From an uncultured Sphingomonas sp. (lineage in GTDB: Bacteria; Pseudomonadota; Alphaproteobacteria; Sphingomonadales; Sphingomonadaceae): 64,000 bases of DNA. The position numbers and the translations under genes are program-made. Below, in pieces: positions 56,942-64,000 of the stretch; position 1 is the first letter of the stretch; every line of letters starts with the position of its first letter. Where the stretch lies: assembly GCF_913062585.1 (NCBI RefSeq), contig NZ_CAJXWX010000003.1:136438-200437 (forward strand). Direction: 5' to 3'. The notes beneath the pieces are model-generated. The model ran no database searches. It had not been told where the DNA came from and saw only the letters and a list, made by a program, of their open reading frames with translations.

Positions 56942-58345
56942 ATGATCAGGACACGACCTAGCAGCATCTTCGACAGGATCGTCATCTGGTCTTTCGATCG
57001 GCCTTTGTCGGGTCTGACGCGATATACTGTCGCAGCCTTGGTGATAGTTCTGGTCGCGGCGGCACGCATCCTGTTCGTGCCCGACGAACTTCCATGGCTG
57101 CTGTTCATTCCTGCGGCGATTGGCGTTGCGCTGGTGCTTGGACAGGGAGCCGGGCTGTTTGCCGCCGCGCTGTCCACGGCTGCCGGTGCCCTTTCGATCG
57201 GAAGCGCCTCCAACGACTATTGGTTGCCGGAACCGCAGTGGGTGGCGGCAGGCCTCTTCGTCGTGATCCTGACGGGGATGGTCATGCTTGCCGGCGAACT
57301 GCGCGAATCCATGCGTCGGTCGGTCTCCCTAAATGCCGAGCTGGTCGAGCGGGAGCGTTCGTCAGCGGAACGCGAGGCCTTCCTGTCCAGCGTCCTTGCG
57401 GCGTCGACTGACTGCATCAAGGTCCTGGATCTGGACGGCAACCTGACCTTCATGAGCGAAGGCGGCATGAAGGTGATGGACATCAGCGACTTCAACGCGG
57501 TTCGTGGCTGTCCCTGGCCGGAATTCCTCAAGGACGCCGGCTCGGTCCAGGCGCGCGCGGCACTTGATGCGGCAGCCGAGGGGCGTTCGTCGCATTTCGA
57601 GGCGGCGGCGGACACCCATATCGGCATTCCCAAATGGTGGTCGGTGTCGGTGTCGCCGATCCCCGGCCCAGATGGTCACCCCGCCCGCGTCCTGTCGGTG
57701 TCGCGCGACCACACCGCGCTGCACGAAGCGCGCGAGCAGCAGCAGTTGCTGAACGGCGAACTGAGCCACCGGCTCAAGAATGTCCTGACCCTAGTCCAGT
57801 CCATCGCCAATCAGACGCTGCGCGGAGCGCATAGCGTCGAGGACGCTTCGGCCGCCTTCTCATCGAGACTGGCATCGCTCGGACGGGCTACCGACGTTTT
57901 GACCACCACCGCCTGGCAGCAGGCGGAGCTTCACGACGTCGTCGATGCCGGCCTGTCGGCCGTGTCCGGCATGAAGGACAGGATCACGATCGATGGCCCA
58001 CGCATCCGATTGAACTCGCAGGTCGCTCTGGCGTTGACCCTGGCTCTTCACGAACTGGCGACGAACGCGACCAAGTATGGCGCGCTCAGCAAAGACACGG
58101 GATCGGTAGCTCTGCGATGGCAGGTGAATGGCAACAACGGAGCTTCCTGCTTCCATCTGATCTGGCAGGAACGGGATGGGCCGCCGGTCGTACGACCGAC
58201 GCAGCGCGGCTTTGGCTCACGTATGATTGAGCGCTCGCTCGGGGCCTATTTCAGAGGCAGGACGGTACTGGATTTCCCGGCCGAAGGCGTCGTGTTCCGG
58301 ATCGATGCGCCACTTGGCGACACCGGCGAACTGATCGACAGCTGA
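56942..58345 (+). CDS. membrane-bound PAS + HWE histidine kinase
   Basis: N-terminal TM helices, PAS (DCIKVLDLDG), ELSHRLKN, HELATNATKYG, WQE. Confidence 0.92.
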   Translation: MIRTRPSSIFDRIVIWSFDRPLSGLTRYTVAALVIVLVAAARILFVPDELPWLLFIPAAIGVALVLGQGAGLFAAALSTAAGALSIGSASNDYWLPEPQWVAAGLFVVILTGMVMLAGELRESMRRSVSLNAELVERERSSAEREAFLSSVLAASTDCIKVLDLDGNLTFMSEGGMKVMDISDFNAVRGCPWPEFLKDAGSVQARAALDAAAEGRSSHFEAAADTHIGIPKWWSVSVSPIPGPDGHPARVLSVSRDHTALHEAREQQQLLNGELSHRLKNVLTLVQSIANQTLRGAHSVEDASAAFSSRLASLGRATDVLTTTAWQQAELHDVVDAGLSAVSGMKDRITIDGPRIRLNSQVALALTLALHELATNATKYGALSKDTGSVALRWQVNGNNGASCFHLIWQERDGPPVVRPTQRGFGSRMIERSLGAYFRGRTVLDFPAEGVVFRIDAPLGDTGELIDS

Positions 58346-58346
58346 C

Positions 58347-58718
58347 ATGGGACAGGCCATTCCCCCACGCAGCATCCTCATCGTCGAGGACGAGCCGTTC
58401 ATTCGCTACGATCTTGTGGACTTCTTCGAAGACCGTGGCTTCAAGGTGTTCGAAGCCGAGGATGCAGAAGAGGCGATCGAAGTGCTCGCCGCGAACGCTT
58501 CCGTTCGGATTGTCCTGACCGACGTGCAGATGCCAGGATCCATGGATGGCGTGAAACTCGCCCACTTCGTCCGCGACCGCTATCCGCCAACGATCCTCAT
58601 CGTCGTTTCGGGCATGGCCAATCCATCTGCAGCCGACCTACCCGACCGGGCGGTGTTCGTGGGAAAGCCGTTCGACCCGCGCCATGTACTGGGCGTGATC
58701 GACCACCTTTCGGCGTGA
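58347..58718 (+). CDS. single-domain response regulator
   Basis: LIVEDE, LTDVQMPGSMDG, VSG, KPF. Confidence 0.92.
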   Translation: MGQAIPPRSILIVEDEPFIRYDLVDFFEDRGFKVFEAEDAEEAIEVLAANASVRIVLTDVQMPGSMDGVKLAHFVRDRYPPTILIVVSGMANPSAADLPDRAVFVGKPFDPRHVLGVIDHLSA

Positions 58719-58775
58719 TGGACCGCTCCGCGCGGCGGAGGTCGAATTTGTGAACACCCCATCATTCGGCAAGCG

Positions 58776-61535
58776 TCAGTTTCGGCGTTCGCCCGATCGT
58801 GCGATACGACGCTGCAGCGCGACCGACAGTTGGCCAGCCGAATAGGGCTTGCGGAGCAGATCGATACCTTTGACACCTTCCTGCGCAAGGACATGGCTAT
58901 AGCCGCTGGCGAGTACGACGGGCATGTCGGGCAGATCCCGCATGAGCCGCTTGGCTAGCTCGACACCGCCCATGCCGGGCATCACGACGTCTGAGAACAC
59001 GATGTCGAAGCCGTCGCCATCGGACCCGAGCCGTTCGAGCGCTTCCTCCGCGCTGGTTACCCACGCAGTCTGATAGCCCATGTCCTCAAGCAGCTGGGTC
59101 GCGAACTGGCCGACGCTGATATTGTCTTCGACCACAAGCACGCAGCGGCCCCCTCCGTCGATGTTCTCCTGCTGATCGGCGGACCTCTCTTCCGTGGCAA
59201 TCGCCGGATCGGCCTGTGGCAGATAGAGGGTGAAGGTCGCCCCCTCTCCGACCAAGCTCGAGACGTCGACGTCGCCGCCGGACTGCTTGGCGAAGCCGAA
59301 CACCTGGCTGAGGCCCAGGCCGGTGCCTTTCCCCACATCCTTGGTCGTGAAAAAGGGCTCGAAGATGCGCTCCAGGTCCTCGGGTGAAATGCCCGTCCCG
59401 GTATCTGTGAGTGATATGGCGACGAAGTGGCCCGTCCCAGGGCCATGACCGCGTATTGAGGGCATCTGCGCATCGCATCGCAGGCGGATCGTGACTGTGC
59501 CCTCGCCATTCATCGCATCGCGGGCGTTGACGGCGAGGTTGACCAAGGCCGTCTCGAACTGGCTGACGTCAGCACGCACGCGGCATATGCCGTCCGGGAC
59601 CTCGAACCGGACGAGCACGCGGCTGCCGGTGATGCTGTCGAGCATGTCGGTGATGGCATCGAGCCGCTGCCCGACCTCGAACACTTCCGGCTCCAACGTC
59701 TGCCGGCGGGCGAAGGCGAGAAGCTGACCGGTCAGCTTGGCAGCTCGGTCGGCGGTGTCGCCGATCGCATCGAGATAGCGCTGGCGCTTCTCCGGTGCGA
59801 CATTGTCCCGACGCAGCAGGTCGACCGAGCCGCGGATGACCGTCAACAGGTTGTTGAAGTCGTGCGCCACCCCGCCGGTGAGCTGGCCGATCGCTTCCAT
59901 CTTTTGACTTTGACGCAGACGTTCTTCCGCCTCCATCAGTTCAGCCGTCCGATCGGCGACCCGCTGCTCTAGCGTCTCGGTAAGCGTGCGGAGGGCCGCG
60001 GTTGCACGGTCGCGGTCCGCTTCCACCGCGCGGCGTTCCTCGACGTCGATCAGCACGCCAGGGAAGCTCTGTGCATTGCCCTCTGGCCCCATATCGACCC
60101 GGCCATTCGCCTCGATCCAGTAATAGCGGCCATCGGTTCGACGCACGCGGTACTGGTGCGCATAGGGGCCGCCGCGGGCAATGACGGCTCCGATCGCTTC
60201 CGCGAGGCCAGCCTGGTCGTCCGGATGGACGGTGGCGACGATCTGCTCGAGCGGGATGCCCTCGCGACCCAATGCCGGATCCAGTCCGAAGGTATGGGCG
60301 AACGCCTCGTCGATCGTGAAGCGATCACCAGGAACATCCCAGTGCCAGGTCCCGATGATGGCACCGGCAGCCAGCGCCAGCTGCACCCGCTCGACATTCT
60401 GGCGAGCGATGGCCTCGCTTTCCTTCAGCTTTTCCTGCGCTTCGCGACGCGCGGTGACATCGTTGAACAGGATGGCGATCTGGCGATCGGCGGGGTCGCC
60501 GACGCGAACCGTGCGCACGTCGAACCAGCGTCCGAACGCCTCAGCATAGTTTTCGAAATTGGTCGGCTCGCCCGTCCTCGCAACGTGGCCATAGGTCTCG
60601 AACCAGAAACGCTCCAGGTCAGGTGCGAACTCAGTGACCCACTTGCCGCGAAGATCGACACCCGACTGCTCGGCGAATGCAGGGTTCGCCTCGAGGAAGC
60701 GATAGTCGATCGGCTTGTCGTCAGCGTCGAACTTGACCTCGACGATGGCAAAGGCCGCGTCGATCGTGTCGATGATCGTCTGGAACCGCTCCTGCGCATG
60801 TCGGAGGGCAACGCCGCTCAGATGCTCGTGCGTCCGGTCACGCAGCATTTTGACGAAGCCGAGATGTCGATCATCCGCATCGAACAATGGCAGCATCTCG
60901 CCCGACGCCCAGAAGCGCTCGCCGTCCTTACGCAGATGCCATCGCTCGTCGGTGGCACGACCGTTCCGGAGGGCCCCTGACATCTCGTATTCGATACGAT
61001 CGCTTTCGCGGTCTTCCGGCGTGAAGAACCGTTCTGCATCCTGGCCCACCATTTCGTCGGCAGTCCAGCCGAGCACGGTCTGTGCGCCTGGATTCCAGTC
61101 GGTGATGATGCCTGACGGGTCGGTGACGATCATCGCAATGTCGATCGCATTTTCGAAAATCGCGCGCTGCCTGGCCTCGCTGGCAGCGAGCGCGATCTGG
61201 CTTTCGCGGAGCATGGCGACCAGTTCCCGAGAATCGTTCAGGTCCGCCAAGGCATCGGCAATGTGAAGTCTATGGGTTTTCGCCGCGGCCTGTTCGCGTT
61301 CCTGCGCCGCGATGGTTCGCCCATTGGCCTCGATCGTCTGCCTGCGGCTTACCGTCAGGTCGGTCAGGTGCCGATGTTCCTGTTCTATCTGTCGTTGGCC
61401 GAACTGGTCAGCCCGGATCTCAGCTTGCGCCAGCGCCGCGCGCAGATGCGCGACCTCCGCCTCGAGTTCCTCTCTGGTCATCGTATTCAAGGACGGTTCC
61501 GCTGCTGGCATCGCATGATTATTATCGCGATCCAT
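58776..61535 (-). CDS. hybrid sensor kinase: coiled coil, three PAS, HisKA/HATPase, receiver
   Basis: [50 protein letters not shown]; start 61535 or 61511. Confidence 0.92.
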
Positions 61536-61907
61536 ATTAGCGGCGACGGCGGCACCGCAATCGAAAAAAATGTTACGGATCGGGGCATTAACCCGTGGTT
61601 GCCAGAGCAAATGCAACTGCAATTCGGCTTGTCCCGACACGTTGACCAATTCGCTAATCTGATTGATGGTGATCGTCAGGACGATAAGTCAGTTCTCCAC
61701 GATGTACTGGTGGCTGGCCGCAATGAACGATGCATTCGATGCGGGACGGCGTGCCGGTGCCCCACCTCTGGGCTCGGCGGCCGATTGCCCGATCACCCAT
61801 GCCGAACTCATGCTGCGCATGAGCTGGATGAACGGCTCCAGTTGGAGCCGGATCAATGGAATTTCTATGCGAGCGTGAGTTGATCCGACCATCCGGTTGC
61901 CTTTTCC

Positions 61908-62090
61908 TCAGCCGGATGTCTCTACCGTGTCGCGCGCCCGTTCCCCGGTTGCGGCGAAATAGGCGGCCCTATTTAAATGCCGCGCTTTCAGGGTCAGGTC
62001 GTCGACCGACTTGGCCAAGGCCAATTCCTCATTGGTGCGTCGTTCAAAGTATGCCGGGCAATCTTCACTCACGCATGTCTCCTTTCGCAA
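61908..62090 (-). CDS. small helical protein, 60 aa
   Basis: AAGGAG RBS; YFERRTNEELALA...KARHL..AAYF. Confidence 0.6.
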   Translation of the reverse strand: MRKETCVSEDCPAYFERRTNEELALAKSVDDLTLKARHLNRAAYFAATGERARDTVETSG

Positions 62091-62265
62091 AGTGTTACCC
62101 GTTGCGAACGTTGTTCATGGCGGTCTGAAGGGCCATGGAGGGCGGCGTCGCGCATTTAGGCGACATCCCCCGTTTCGTGCCTGAACTGATCGTCTCGACT
62201 GCCATTATGTTCCTTCACGAGACAGAATGTTTCGAAACTGTATCAATCACATGGGTGGATTGTCC

Positions 62266-62292
62266 GGAACAAGATTGACCTCGGCATGCGTT
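62266..62292 (+). promoter_or_regulatory. candidate EcfG/SigT-type promoter
   Basis: GGAAC-N18-CGTT 28 nt upstream of the response regulator; spacer 1 nt longer than the usual 16-17. Confidence 0.45.
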
Positions 62293-62320
62293 ATGAAGTG
62301 GTCGGGTCGGGAGCCGGATC

Positions 62321-62680
62321 ATGTGTCATGTGCTGATTATCGAGGATGAACCATTCATCGCCATGAGCATCCAGGTGATGCTCGAGGAGGAAGGTGCGAC
62401 GTCGTTCGACTTCGCCGTTACCGAGCAGGATGCGGTGGCGGCGGCGATGGCACATCGCCCGGAACTGATAACCTCCGACGTGAAGCTGATCGAGGGTACC
62501 GGCCCCATGGCGGTGGCCCAGATCCATGAACGGCTGGGAGCCCTGCCGGTCATCTTCATCAGCGCGACTCCCGGCGAATGTAAACCTTGCGACCCACCCG
62601 GAATCGTCCTGAGCAAGCCGCTTCGCGAGGGCGATCTGAAGGACGCCTTCCACAGGATCGGAATGTGCGAAAGCGGATAG
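62321..62680 (+). CDS. single-domain response regulator
   Basis: LIIEDE, TSDVKL, ISA, KP. Confidence 0.88.
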   Translation: MCHVLIIEDEPFIAMSIQVMLEEEGATSFDFAVTEQDAVAAAMAHRPELITSDVKLIEGTGPMAVAQIHERLGALPVIFISATPGECKPCDPPGIVLSKPLREGDLKDAFHRIGMCESG

Positions 62681-62780
62681 GCCAGCGGTCGACGCAGCCG
62701 TTCGCAAAGATTGATTGCCCATCATTTCAAGGACCTGTGCCATCTATTGACACGAATGTGACGTACGCGCAGTGCGAGCC

Positions 62781-64000
62781 ATGACCTCCCGACTTTCCTG
62801 CAATGTTTCGCTGACCCCTGAGCTGAAGAGCTTCATTGCGGACAGCATCGTCACGGGCGACTATGCCAATGTCAGCGAAGTCGTCCGGGCGGGTCTGCGT
62901 GCCCTGCGTGACGGACAGGGCGTCGTGGTCCGGCCGATGATTCAGGACTGGCCCGCCTCTGGTGGGGAATGTGGCGCACTCATTCGCAATCGGGATTGGA
63001 GCCGAACTTCACTCGGGACTCCGCAAGGATGGTCGCACGAGATGCGCGCGACCATCTCGAATCTCGTCAATTCACCGGTCGCCAAGGTGCTCATGTGGGG
63101 CCCCGACCACGTCATGTTCTACAATGACGCATATCGGGAAATCGCAGGCGACCGGCATCCGCTGGCGCTCGGAATGCCGGTCGCCGAGGCATTTCCGGAG
63201 GTCTGGGACTGGAATGGTCCGGTGCTGGCTGCCGTCCTGAAGGGTGAGGCTCAGTCCCATCTCGACCAGCCCATCGTATTCCAGCGGCCCGATGGCCCAC
63301 AGACGCTGTTCCTCGGCCTATTCTACACGCCCGTCTACGATGCGGATGGCCAGCCGGGCGGCGTATTGTGCACGATCATCGACAACAGCGCGCGCATCGC
63401 AGCCGAGCAGAAGGTCGCGGCCAGCGAGGCGGAACTGCGTCGGATTACCGACGCCGTGCCGATGCTCGTTTCCTATGTCGATCGGGACCACGTCTACCGC
63501 TTCGCCAATGCCGACTATCAGACTTGGTTCGGCATAGCGCCCGACGCCATGGTCGGCAGGCATGTGCGAGACGTGATCGGCGACGTCGCCTATAGCGACC
63601 GCCGTGCAGACCTCGATGCCTCGCTAGCAGGGGCTTCGATCGTGGCGGAGACGGTGCTCCAGCATCGCGAGCTGGGCCCACGTCAGACCGAGATTCGCTA
63701 TGTGCCGCATATCGGCGATGATGGTACCACGCACGGCGTCTACATACTTGGCATCGACGTCGGAGAACGAGCCGAACGGGAAGCACAGATCAGGGCCAGC
63801 AACAGCCGCTTCCGTACCGCCATGGAGGCAGTGCACGGCGTCCTGTGGACCAACAGCGCGGATGGGCGGATGATCGGGGAGCAGCCAGGCTGGGCTGCGC
63901 TCACCGGTCAGAGCACCGACGAGTATCAAGGCTTCGGCTGGTCCTCGGCGGTCCACCCCGACGATGCTGCCGGCAGCGTCATCGCATGGAACGAAGCGGT
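62781..64000 (+). CDS. ParD-like RHH domain fused to tandem PAS domains, probable sensor kinase (partial, not in ORF track)
   Basis: Manual translation open for 406 codons: NVSLTPELKSFI..GDYANVSEVVRAGLRAL, then DWSRTSLG..GW, FYNDAY, YVDRDHVYRFAN, GWSSAVHPDD. Confidence 0.85.
   Translation, partial: MTSRLSCNVSLTPELKSFIADSIVTGDYANVSEVVRAGLRALRDGQGVVVRPMIQDWPASGGECGALIRNRDWSRTSLGTPQGWSHEMRATISNLVNSPVAKVLMWGPDHVMFYNDAYREIAGDRHPLALGMPVAEAFPEVWDWNGPVLAAVLKGEAQSHLDQPIVFQRPDGPQTLFLGLFYTPVYDADGQPGGVLCTIIDNSARIAAEQKVAASEAELRRITDAVPMLVSYVDRDHVYRFANADYQTWFGIAPDAMVGRHVRDVIGDVAYSDRRADLDASLAGASIVAETVLQHRELGPRQTEIRYVPHIGDDGTTHGVYILGIDVGERAEREAQIRASNSRFRTAMEAVHGVLWTNSADGRMIGEQPGWAALTGQSTDEYQGFGWSSAVHPDDAAGSVIAWNEA

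What the first reader, a model, noticed from the sequence alone, without database searches (positions are those of the whole stretch)
62737..64000. ParD-like ribbon-helix-helix DNA-binding domain fused in frame to a multi-PAS sensor
Seen: one uninterrupted frame from ATG 62781 to the window end, absent from the ORF track. Residues 1-43 (NVSLTPELKSFIADSIVTGDYANVSEVVRAGLRAL) match the ParD/CC2985 antitoxin RHH pattern but lack the acidic toxin-binding tail. At least three PAS domains follow, and I saw no parE gene upstream. A near-palindrome GTGCCA-N5-TGACAC, containing TTGACA, lies at 62737-62753. Established: RHH antitoxins dimerise and autorepress through short palindromes. Inference: an antitoxin DNA-binding module recruited onto a sensor (likely a kinase), giving a self-regulating or DNA-tethered sensor, an architecture I do not recognise as described.
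Basis: partly seen in the sequence, partly recalled or inferred. Interest (0 to 1): 0.75.

Follow-up and report, generated by a model that had tools for sequence, protein, structure and literature searches.

The report
Sensor kinase carrying an antitoxin's DNA-binding head
A large soluble sensor kinase of Sphingomonas has kept, at its very tip, the DNA-binding domain of a ParD antitoxin together with that antitoxin's operator on its own promoter, so the kinase probably switches its own gene off; this is a conserved but unstudied design.

Summary
ATG 62781 opens a 1036-aa hybrid histidine kinase: ParD-type RHH, variable 11-aa linker, three PAS domains, kinase core, two receivers. The RHH passes the curated ParD cut-off but lacks the toxin-binding tail, and the genome has no ParE.

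The fusion is not an artefact. It is one uninterrupted frame in 80 loci and over 200 protein clusters (Sphingomonas, Methylobacterium, Rhizobium, Agrobacterium, Bosea, Devosia; also on plasmids). The RHH evolves under purifying selection (pN/pS 0.34; linker 0.95). Met53 is not conserved.

The palindrome is conserved: core TGNCA-N5-TGACA is perfect in 58 of 78 distinct upstream regions (shuffles 0.2%). Its right arm is an invariant TTGACA 34-35 nt before the ATG, and Shine-Dalgarno sequences are mostly absent, suggesting a leaderless mRNA.

The closest stand-alone parDE operons, in Proteobacteria and Acidobacteria, carry the same dyad type on their promoters. A paralogue clade with a diverged RHH strand lacks it.

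Best reading (about 0.6): a parD promoter-operator-RHH cassette was captured by a PAS kinase, which represses its own promoter. DNA binding is untested, and I found no paper describing the architecture. The scan had not recorded this fusion on other DNA.

The parts
62737..62753 (.). 17-bp dyad GTGCCA-TCTAT-TGACAC. It comprises two self-symmetric TGNCA pentamers 10 bp centre to centre and is the putative RHH operator.
   Evidence: Read directly. The strict form is present in 44 of 80 orthologous loci, always 43-46 nt before the ATG, with none in 924 kb of flanks. The core is perfect in 58 of 78 distinct upstream regions against 0.2% of shuffles. The same dyad type is found on stand-alone parDE promoters.
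62747..62752 (+). TTGACA, a consensus -35 hexamer that overlaps the right arm of the dyad
   Evidence: Invariant in 74 non-redundant loci, 34-35 nt before the ATG in most.
62771..62771 (+). Conserved A, 18 nt after the -35 hexamer. It sits at position 2 of a -10 box that is otherwise degenerate, and it lies 10 nt before the ATG.
   Evidence: A in 63 of 74 non-redundant loci. The simple sigma-70 scan calls no promoter here because the -10 is weak.
62781..64000 (+). 5' part (406 of 1036 codons) of the RHH-PAS3-HK-REC-REC hybrid histidine kinase gene. It continues 1891 nt beyond the window (L003 2781-5891).
   Evidence: It is a single open frame in 80 loci.
62796..62915 (+). ParD-type ribbon-helix-helix domain (residues 6-45): beta-strand CNVSLT (family consensus SRNVSLT), helix 13-24 and helix 31-43
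   Evidence: TIGR02606 at 50.6 bits against 46.2, PF03693 at 25.2 against 21. PDB ParD chains 7ycv and 3kxe match at E 3-4e-4. AF2 predicts the helices with pLDDT about 90. pN/pS is 0.34.
62916..62948 (+). Variable linker (residues 46-56), which contains the non-conserved Met53
   Evidence: pN/pS is 0.95, column conservation is 0-40%, and length varies between loci. AF2 confidence is lower here.
62949..63395 (+). PAS domain 1 with the conserved N-cap WP.GGGECG.LIR..DW
   Evidence: PAS_9/PAS_4 hits. AF2 pLDDT is above 90 and the nearest solved fold is the Rv1364c PAS domain, 3k3c.
63432..63773 (+). PAS domain 2
   Evidence: PAS_4 covers residues 224-331.
63792..64000 (+). PAS domain 3, cut by the window end
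   Evidence: PAS_3 covers residues 369-450 and TIGR00229 covers 338-463 in the full protein.
62321..62680 (+). Upstream single-domain response-regulator receiver. It is a neighbour, not a conserved partner.
   Evidence: PF00072. It is syntenic only in S. sanguinis-level relatives.

Best explanation
The gene encodes a soluble 1036-aa hybrid histidine kinase. Its first 45 residues are the DNA-binding ribbon-helix-helix domain of a ParD antitoxin, stripped of the toxin-binding tail and joined by a short flexible linker to the first of three PAS sensor domains.

Histidine kinases are parallel dimers, so the two N-termini can form one RHH dimer. I infer that two such dimers sit side by side on the two TGNCA boxes of the dyad, which covers the -35 hexamer of the kinase's own promoter, and so repress transcription (negative autoregulation).

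The promoter geometry places the transcription start at or next to the ATG, so the mRNA is probably leaderless. The promoter, operator and RHH look like one cassette inherited from a parDE module and captured by a PAS kinase gene. The unit then spread, partly on plasmids, among Sphingomonadales and Hyphomicrobiales.

Shown here: the fusion, its conservation and the selection on it; the conserved dyad at a fixed position; and the same dyad type at stand-alone parDE promoters. Inferred: DNA binding by the fused RHH, repression, the leaderless start, and any coupling of DNA binding to the sensed signal or phosphorylation state.
For: - **Architecture and homology:**
- **Fusion conserved as one frame:** over 200 protein clusters and 80 genome loci, with no stops inside.
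- **RHH translated and constrained:** pN/pS is 0.34, against 0.95 for the linker and 0.38 for the PAS cap. The strand residues R-N-V-S-L-T are 80-90% conserved.
- **Dyad in the kinase clade:** the core is perfect in 58 of 78 distinct upstream regions (shuffles 0.23%). The strict form occurs only at -43 to -46 and nowhere else in 924 kb of flanks.
- **No conserved synteny:** the promoter-dyad-ORF travels as a unit.
- **Independent link of dyad to RHH:** the closest stand-alone ParDs have the same RN(V/I)(S/A)L strand and SGDYANASEV core, and each is followed by ParE. They carry GTGNCA-N5-KGNCAC on their promoters. The core is perfect or one base off in 13 of 14 distinct proteobacterial upstream regions and in 17 of 17 acidobacterial ones.
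- **Natural negative control:** the paralogue clade, whose strand reads SRMLSLP (the Asn is lost), has no dyad in 0 of 18 regions.
- **Known RHH operator architecture:** the CopG operator is TGCA-N5-TGCA and the ParD2 operator has boxes 6 bp apart, with adjacent dimers in consecutive major grooves (PMC10776004).
- **Leaderless geometry:** TTGACA is invariant, a conserved A lies 18 nt later and the ATG 10-11 nt after that. SD-like tetramers occur in only 8 of 80 loci.
- **No rival ParD:** the genome has no ParE and no other ParD that could occupy the site.
Against: - There is no experimental or RNA evidence.
- The window's own -10 region is poor, and the simple sigma-70 scan finds no promoter.
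- TTGACA would be conserved as a -35 box whether or not a protein binds it. Only the left arm and the flanking C carry information specific to an operator, about 1.2-1.4 bits per position.
- In the stand-alone parDE promoters the left arm coincides with the -35 box (clearest in the acidobacterial set), while in the kinases the right arm does. The cassette was therefore remodelled, not copied unchanged.
- 20 of 78 kinase upstream regions have an imperfect core.
- Two 230-kDa kinase dimers binding 10 bp apart could clash; this was not modelled.
- The AF2 monomer cannot show the RHH dimer, and the RHH-only model gave no fold matches.
Confidence: 0.6

Rival explanations
1. The RHH is kept only as a dimerisation cap for the PAS-kinase dimer and no longer binds DNA. 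The conserved upstream element would then be just a strong -35 box plus an upstream promoter element, or the site of an unrelated regulator.
For: RHH domains are obligate dimers and the kinase is a dimer, so a structural role is plausible. TTGACA conservation alone is explained by promoter function. The paralogue clade keeps an RHH-like fold with a changed strand and no dyad, which shows the domain can persist without this operator.
Against: The solvent-facing strand residues (R, N, S, T) are as conserved as the hydrophobic core. The left arm TG.CA is conserved at exactly 10-bp spacing with symmetric flanks. The same dyad type accompanies the same RHH subfamily in unrelated parDE operons of two phyla. 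An unrelated regulator would have to be co-transferred with a gene that has no conserved neighbours.
Confidence: 0.2
2. The RHH makes the kinase a signal-gated transcription factor with a wider regulon, or tethers it to DNA to phosphorylate a DNA-bound partner. Its own promoter would be only one of several targets.
For: A second perfect dyad (GTGTCACAAAATGTCAC) lies in the intergenic region upstream of another PAS sensor gene in the same genome. The protein has two receiver domains and no obvious output domain other than the RHH.
Against: Strict dyad counts in this genome and in five other carrier genomes are at the level of the reversed-pattern control. Only the kinase's own promoter recurs. 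The second site could not be shown to be conserved in relatives.
Confidence: 0.12
3. The fusion is an assembly or annotation accident, or only an internal-start product (Met53) without the RHH is made.
For: None beyond the presence of an in-frame ATG at 62937.
Against: The frame is single and uninterrupted in 80 loci from many genera and in 22 plasmids. Met53 lies in the unconserved linker and is absent in relatives. The RHH codons are under purifying selection. The conserved promoter sits immediately before ATG 62781.
Confidence: 0.02

Closest known systems
ParD antitoxins of parDE type II toxin-antitoxin modules (TIGR02606 / PF03693; Caulobacter ParD1 3KXE, V. cholerae ParD2 7B22/7R5A)
   Same: The N-terminal RHH domain is homologous. 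The closest stand-alone ParDs share the RN(V/I)(S/A)L strand and the SGDYANASEV(V/M)RAGLRAL core. They also carry the same operator type on their promoters. ParD is an established autorepressor that binds as adjacent RHH dimers (PMC10776004).
   Different: There is no C-terminal toxin-neutralising region (model positions 41-70 are missing). There is no parE next to the gene or anywhere in the genome. The RHH is covalently joined to a 990-aa sensor kinase, and the mRNA is probably leaderless, whereas the parDE operons have a leader with a Shine-Dalgarno sequence.
PutA of enteric and some other bacteria (an RHH domain fused to proline dehydrogenase/P5C dehydrogenase, repressing the put genes). 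This comparison is from my own knowledge.
   Same: An N-terminal RHH is fused to a large enzyme that thereby regulates its own gene. DNA binding there is coupled to the enzyme's functional state.
   Different: The partner enzyme is unrelated. PutA's RHH is not of the ParD subfamily. Coupling of DNA binding to the signal is unknown here.
Histidine kinases with built-in DNA-binding domains: Bacteroides hybrid two-component systems (HK-REC-AraC HTH; own knowledge) and the Arc-type RHH-HisKA-REC proteins noted in Lokiarchaeum (PMC5847659)
   Same: The sensor kinase, receiver and DNA-binding module are in one polypeptide.
   Different: Here the DNA-binding domain is N-terminal, upstream of the sensor domains, and derives from ParD. 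The only recurrent conserved site is the kinase's own promoter. The Lokiarchaeal proteins were listed, not studied, and lack PAS and HATPase_c in the reported architecture.
CopG / Arc / MetJ RHH repressors
   Same: The operator logic is the same: short self-symmetric boxes about one helical turn apart, read by beta-ribbons of adjacent dimers (CopG TGCA-N5-TGCA against TGNCA-N5-TGACA here).
   Different: Those are small stand-alone repressors. Tetramer formation by the kinase is not shown.
PRK13557 / CckA-like hybrid histidine kinases of Alphaproteobacteria
   Same: The kinase core and first receiver (residues 498-885) match strongly.
   Different: Scores are below the curated cut-offs (486 against 631; CckA 400 against 1000). 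The N-terminal half differs, and this protein has the RHH and a second receiver.

Membership tests
ParD antitoxin (TIGR02606 / PF03693) | N-terminal RHH domain matching the family model | tested here: met
   The isolated domain scores 50.6 bits against the 46.2 cut-off (TIGR02606) and 25.2 against 21 (PF03693). Within the full protein, Pfam gives 19-20.7 bits, just under the cut-off.
ParD antitoxin (TIGR02606 / PF03693) | C-terminal toxin-binding (ParE-neutralising) region | tested here: not met
   Only model positions 2-40 of 70 (TIGR02606) and 7-42 of 81 (Pfam) align. Residue 46 onward is a variable linker and then PAS.
ParD antitoxin (TIGR02606 / PF03693) | Cognate parE toxin gene in an operon with it | tested here: not met
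   The neighbours are a receiver gene and a GGDEF-EAL gene. PF05016 finds nothing in the whole genome, while the control genomes do give hits.
ParD antitoxin (TIGR02606 / PF03693) | Autorepression through an operator at its own promoter | tested here: inconclusive
   A conserved dyad of the type found at stand-alone parDE promoters overlaps the -35 box. Binding and repression cannot be tested with these tools.
RHH (CopG/Arc/MetJ) DNA-binding superfamily | Beta-strand followed by two helices, dimerising to form a two-stranded ribbon | tested here: inconclusive
   AF2 gives an extended residues 1-12, then helices 13-24 and 31-43 at pLDDT about 90. The dimer cannot be modelled here. The fold search with the small monomer model gave no matches.
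Hybrid sensor histidine kinase | Phospho-acceptor (DHp) segment with an H-box, HATPase_c catalytic domain and receiver domain(s) | tested here: met
   HATPase_c scores 73 bits and Response_reg 102.6 bits in two stretches. HisKA scores 21.4 bits, below its 26.9 cut-off, but the H-box AHDFNNLL is visible in the sequence. PRK13557 scores 486 bits over residues 498-885.
CckA cell-cycle kinase (NF046020 / NF046026) | Score above the equivalog cut-off | tested here: not met
   It scores 400 and 336 bits against a cut-off of 1000.

The most novel reading that the evidence does not exclude
A signal-gated autorepressor kinase. The PAS-sensed signal or the phosphorylation state of the two receivers would change the oligomeric state or geometry of the N-terminal RHH pair. 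Occupancy of the two-box operator, and hence the amount of kinase, would then track the signal. That would make one polypeptide both a two-component sensor and a one-component transcription factor, built by domesticating a complete toxin-antitoxin autoregulation cassette (promoter, operator, RHH) without its toxin.
Probability: 0.3. Interest if true: 0.78.

Novelty: new variant of a known kind. Interest (0 to 1): 0.62.

Why it matters
Histidine kinases are normally thought to act only by phosphotransfer, and antitoxin DNA-binding domains only within toxin-antitoxin modules.

This family would be a natural example of an antitoxin's autoregulatory cassette (promoter, operator and RHH) being reused to give a sensor kinase built-in control of its own level. 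That control may depend on the signal.

The hypothesis is clear and cheap to test: a 17-bp site, a 45-residue domain, and a natural negative-control paralogue in the same genome.

The work also corrects a recurring misannotation, in which proteins of about 1000 aa are named 'ParD family antitoxin'. It further supplies a candidate operator consensus for a whole subfamily of ParD antitoxins across two phyla.

The carriers are mostly plant- and phyllosphere-associated Sphingomonas, Methylobacterium, Rhizobium and Agrobacterium, so the signal sensed may matter for life on plants.

Tried and rejected
- **Fold search with the RHH-only AF2 model.** The model had 52 aa and pLDDT 70.6. It gave no significant hits. 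The model is too small and monomeric, so this does not count against the RHH assignment.
- **Fold search with the 220-aa model.** It only identified the PAS domain, with Rv1364c PAS as the best match, and says nothing about the RHH.
- **Simple sigma-70 scan of 62550-62900.** It found no promoter, because the -10 is degenerate.
- **Regulon search.** The strict dyad occurs at chance frequency in this genome and in five other carrier genomes. The one extra site, upstream of a PAS sensor on contig C7, could not be traced in relatives because the intergenic DNA is not alignable.
- **Conserved gene neighbourhood.** None exists beyond S. sanguinis-level relatives, so there is no partner response regulator by synteny.
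- **Known motifs considered from memory and rejected on spacing or sequence:**
  - sigma-54 -24/-12 on the reverse strand: TGGCAC is present but no properly spaced TTGC.
  - Pho box: direct TGTCA repeats at 11 bp.
  - CRP: TGTGA-N6-TCACA.
  - FNR/FixK: TTGA-N6-TCAA.
- **Literature searches** for an RHH- or ParD-fused histidine kinase. They returned no description of this family, only the Lokiarchaeal Arc-RHH-HisKA-REC remark.
- **An even class-wide sample of 400 genomes** found no further carrier. The family is therefore rare and patchy, not a general alphaproteobacterial feature.

Full report
**Observation.** The window ends inside a long open frame that starts at ATG 62781, with an in-frame GTG at 62772. 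The window maps to contig C3 of a 3.9-Mb, 47-contig genome. Its closest public relative is Sphingomonas sanguinis NBRC 13937, at 97% identity over the N-terminus. Extending the sequence gives a 1036-aa protein.

Pfam and NCBIfam resolve these parts:
- a ParD-type ribbon-helix-helix (RHH) at residues 6-45;
- three PAS domains at about 57-205, 218-331 and 338-463;
- a DHp segment with the H-box AHDFNNLL;
- HATPase_c;
- two receiver domains.

The isolated N-terminus passes the curated cut-offs of TIGR02606 (50.6 against 46.2 bits) and PF03693 (25.2 against 21). It aligns only to the first 40 or so model positions, so the toxin-neutralising half is missing. Solved ParD chains (7ycv, 3kxe) are the best PDB sequence matches. 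An AF2 model of residues 1-220 (pLDDT 90.7) shows an extended N-terminus, helices 13-24 and 31-43, a lower-confidence linker and a PAS fold. The genome has no ParE (PF05016), and its only TIGR02606 hit is this kinase. The palindrome GTGCCA-TCTAT-TGACAC is at 62737-62753.

**Is the fusion real?** A search with residues 1-110 returned 210 full-length proteins of 890-1060 aa, at 55-97% identity. They come from Sphingomonas, Methylobacterium, Rhizobium, Agrobacterium, Shinella, Neorhizobium and others. Eighty genome loci were fetched. In all of them the RHH and PAS lie in one uninterrupted frame. Two loci stop early after the DHp segment.

The N-terminal sequence (SRNVSLTPELE.FI...SGDYANASEVVRAGLRALRD) is among the most conserved parts of the first 110 residues. 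The 11-residue linker that holds Met53 is variable in both sequence and length. Pairwise pN/pS is 0.34 for the RHH, 0.95 for the linker and 0.38 for the PAS cap, with synonymous sites near saturation. The RHH is therefore translated and under selection.

**Distribution.** The family is rare and patchy.
- In an even sample of the family Sphingomonadaceae, 3 of 201 genomes have the full RHH-to-PAS match.
- In an even sample of 400 genomes across the class, none does.
- 195 relatives were found among the species representatives.
- 22 plasmid records carry it, 8 of them conjugative.
- Gene neighbourhoods are not conserved beyond the closest relatives.

In this window the gene sits among other signalling genes: an HWE kinase with a receiver, a hybrid PAS kinase, a lone receiver, and a GAF-GGDEF-EAL gene downstream.

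**The upstream element.** Anchoring all loci on the ATG revealed a conserved element, tgTGNCA.t.gTTGACACa.
- The strict form GTGNCA-N5-TGNCAC is present in 44 of 80 loci, always 43-46 nt before the ATG. It never occurs in the other 924 kb of fetched flanks.
- In 15 loci the six-base arms are perfectly complementary.
- The core TGNCA-N5-KGNCA is perfect in 58 of 78 distinct upstream regions and one base off in 13 more. The corresponding rates in shuffles are 0.23% and 6.3%.
- TTGACA is invariant in 74 non-redundant loci and lies 34-35 nt before the ATG in most.
- The only other conserved base is an A 18 nt after the hexamer (63 of 74 loci). That is position 2 of a -10 box, and it lies 10-11 nt before the ATG.
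- Only 8 of 80 loci have any Shine-Dalgarno-like tetramer.

This geometry puts the transcription start at or beside the ATG, so the mRNA is probably leaderless. It is an inference. The simple sigma-70 scan finds no promoter, because the -10 is degenerate.

**Linking the dyad to the RHH.** Three lines of evidence go beyond co-occurrence.

1. The element has the classic RHH operator layout: two short self-symmetric boxes one helical turn apart. CopG's operator is TGCA-N5-TGCA, and V. cholerae ParD2 reads boxes 6 bp apart, with adjacent dimers in consecutive major grooves (PMC10776004).

2. The closest stand-alone ParDs are 85-95-aa proteins with the same RN(V/I)(S/A)L strand and SGDYANASEV core. 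Where the gene calls were examined, each is followed by a ParE gene. They carry the same dyad type on their promoters:
   - GGTG(G/T)CA-N5-(T/G)GNCACC in proteobacterial loci. The core is perfect or one base off in 13 of 14 distinct upstream regions.
   - TTGGCA-AAGTT-GGCCAA in 16 of 17 acidobacterial loci. It overlaps the -35 box and is followed by a TATACT -10.
   - ParD autorepression at such sites is established for the family.

3. A paralogue in the same genome (contig C8) and its Sphingomonas-wide clade keep an RHH-like N-terminus, but the strand has changed to SRMLSLP and the Asn is lost. None of its 18 upstream regions has the dyad. They share a different conserved block.

**Target range.** The strict dyad is at chance frequency genome-wide, both here and in five other carrier genomes. 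Only the kinase's own promoter recurs. The main target therefore appears to be the gene itself. One extra perfect site lies upstream of an RHH-less PAS sensor on contig C7. Its conservation could not be assessed.

**Mechanism.** The best-supported reading is that the kinase dimer presents one RHH dimer, and that two dimers occupy the two boxes over the -35 hexamer and repress the kinase's own leaderless promoter. The cassette of promoter, operator and RHH was captured from a parDE module whose toxin and toxin-binding tail were lost.

Shown:
- the architecture;
- the conservation and the selection on the RHH;
- the conserved dyad at a fixed position;
- the shared dyad type at parDE promoters;
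- the loss of the dyad in the strand-diverged paralogue clade.

Inferred:
- DNA binding by the fused RHH;
- repression;
- the transcription start;
- tetramer formation;
- any gating by the PAS signal or by phosphorylation.

Against this reading, TTGACA would be conserved as a promoter element in any case. The register of the dyad relative to the -35 box also differs between the parDE promoters (left arm) and the kinases (right arm), so the cassette was remodelled. Steric feasibility for two large kinase dimers is unknown.

**Comparison with known systems.**
- The protein is not a ParD antitoxin. It has no toxin-binding region and no toxin, so two defining features were tested and not met. Only its DNA-binding domain is homologous.
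- It works most like PutA, an RHH-fused enzyme that controls its own genes (my own knowledge).
- As a kinase with a DNA-binding domain, it recalls the Bacteroides hybrid two-component systems (my own knowledge) and the Arc-RHH-HisKA-REC proteins listed for Lokiarchaeum (PMC5847659).
- Its kinase core resembles PRK13557/CckA-type kinases but scores below their cut-offs.
- I found no paper describing this family.
- Databases flag the domain and often misname the whole protein 'ParD family antitoxin'.

**Verdict.** The feature is a new variant of a known kind: an RHH autoregulator fused to an enzyme, or equally a kinase with a DNA-binding module. Interest is 0.62. Confidence that the RHH binds the dyad and autoregulates the gene is about 0.6.

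Noticed in passing
G000 contig C8:69472 onward (L002 1236-3956): A second, paralogous RHH-PAS-HK-REC kinase lies in the same genome. Its RHH has diverged (RTLSLPPQLERYV...ERAMLIAAIERLRD). Its clade in the S. sanguinis/paucimobilis/yabuuchiae group shares a different conserved upstream block (CCGATTGACTTGA..GGTATAGCTT...CATG) and lacks the TGNCA dyad.
   Followed up: partly
G000 contig C7:82358-82374 (L115 1501-1517): This is the only other strict copy of the dyad in the genome (GTGTCACAAAATGTCAC). It lies in the 227-bp intergenic region between acetyl-CoA synthetase and a multi-PAS sensor gene that has the same N-cap but no RHH. The count is at chance level and conservation could not be assessed.
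   Followed up: partly
L157-L171 and L198-L217, about 40-65 nt upstream of each parD ATG: There is a candidate operator consensus for a whole ParD subfamily with the strand RN(V/I)(S/A)L. In Proteobacteria it is GGTGKCA-N5-KGNCACC. In Acidobacteria (Terracidiphilus and relatives) it is TTGGCA-AAGTT-GGCCAA, which overlaps the -35 box and is followed by a TATACT -10.
   Followed up: partly
window 62949-62990 (residues 57-70): The N-cap of PAS1 carries a nearly invariant motif, WP.GGGECG.LIR..DW. Its cysteine (C64) is at least 90% conserved, so it is a possible redox or ligand-linked residue. The nearest solved fold for PAS1 is the Rv1364c N-terminal PAS domain (3k3c).
   Followed up: no
window 56942-62680 and L003 5965-7830: The gene sits in a dense cluster of signalling genes: PAS-HWE kinase with receiver, a 957-aa hybrid PAS kinase on the minus strand, a lone 119-aa receiver, and a convergent GAF-GGDEF-EAL gene downstream. 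None of these is syntenic with the RHH kinase outside the closest relatives.
   Followed up: partly
L042 6001-7506 and L063 6001-7566: Two orthologues, in a Methylobacterium frigidaeris MAG and in Devosia aurantiaca, end after the DHp segment at 501-524 aa. They are possible frameshifts, pseudogenes or assembly errors.
   Followed up: no
Public annotation of homologues and 22 plasmid records: Full-length kinases of about 1000 aa are named 'type II toxin-antitoxin system ParD family antitoxin' or 'putative addiction module CopG family antidote', which is misleading. Copies occur on large Rhizobium, Agrobacterium, Novosphingobium and Roseomonas plasmids, 8 of them conjugative. That fits the patchy distribution.
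   Followed up: partly
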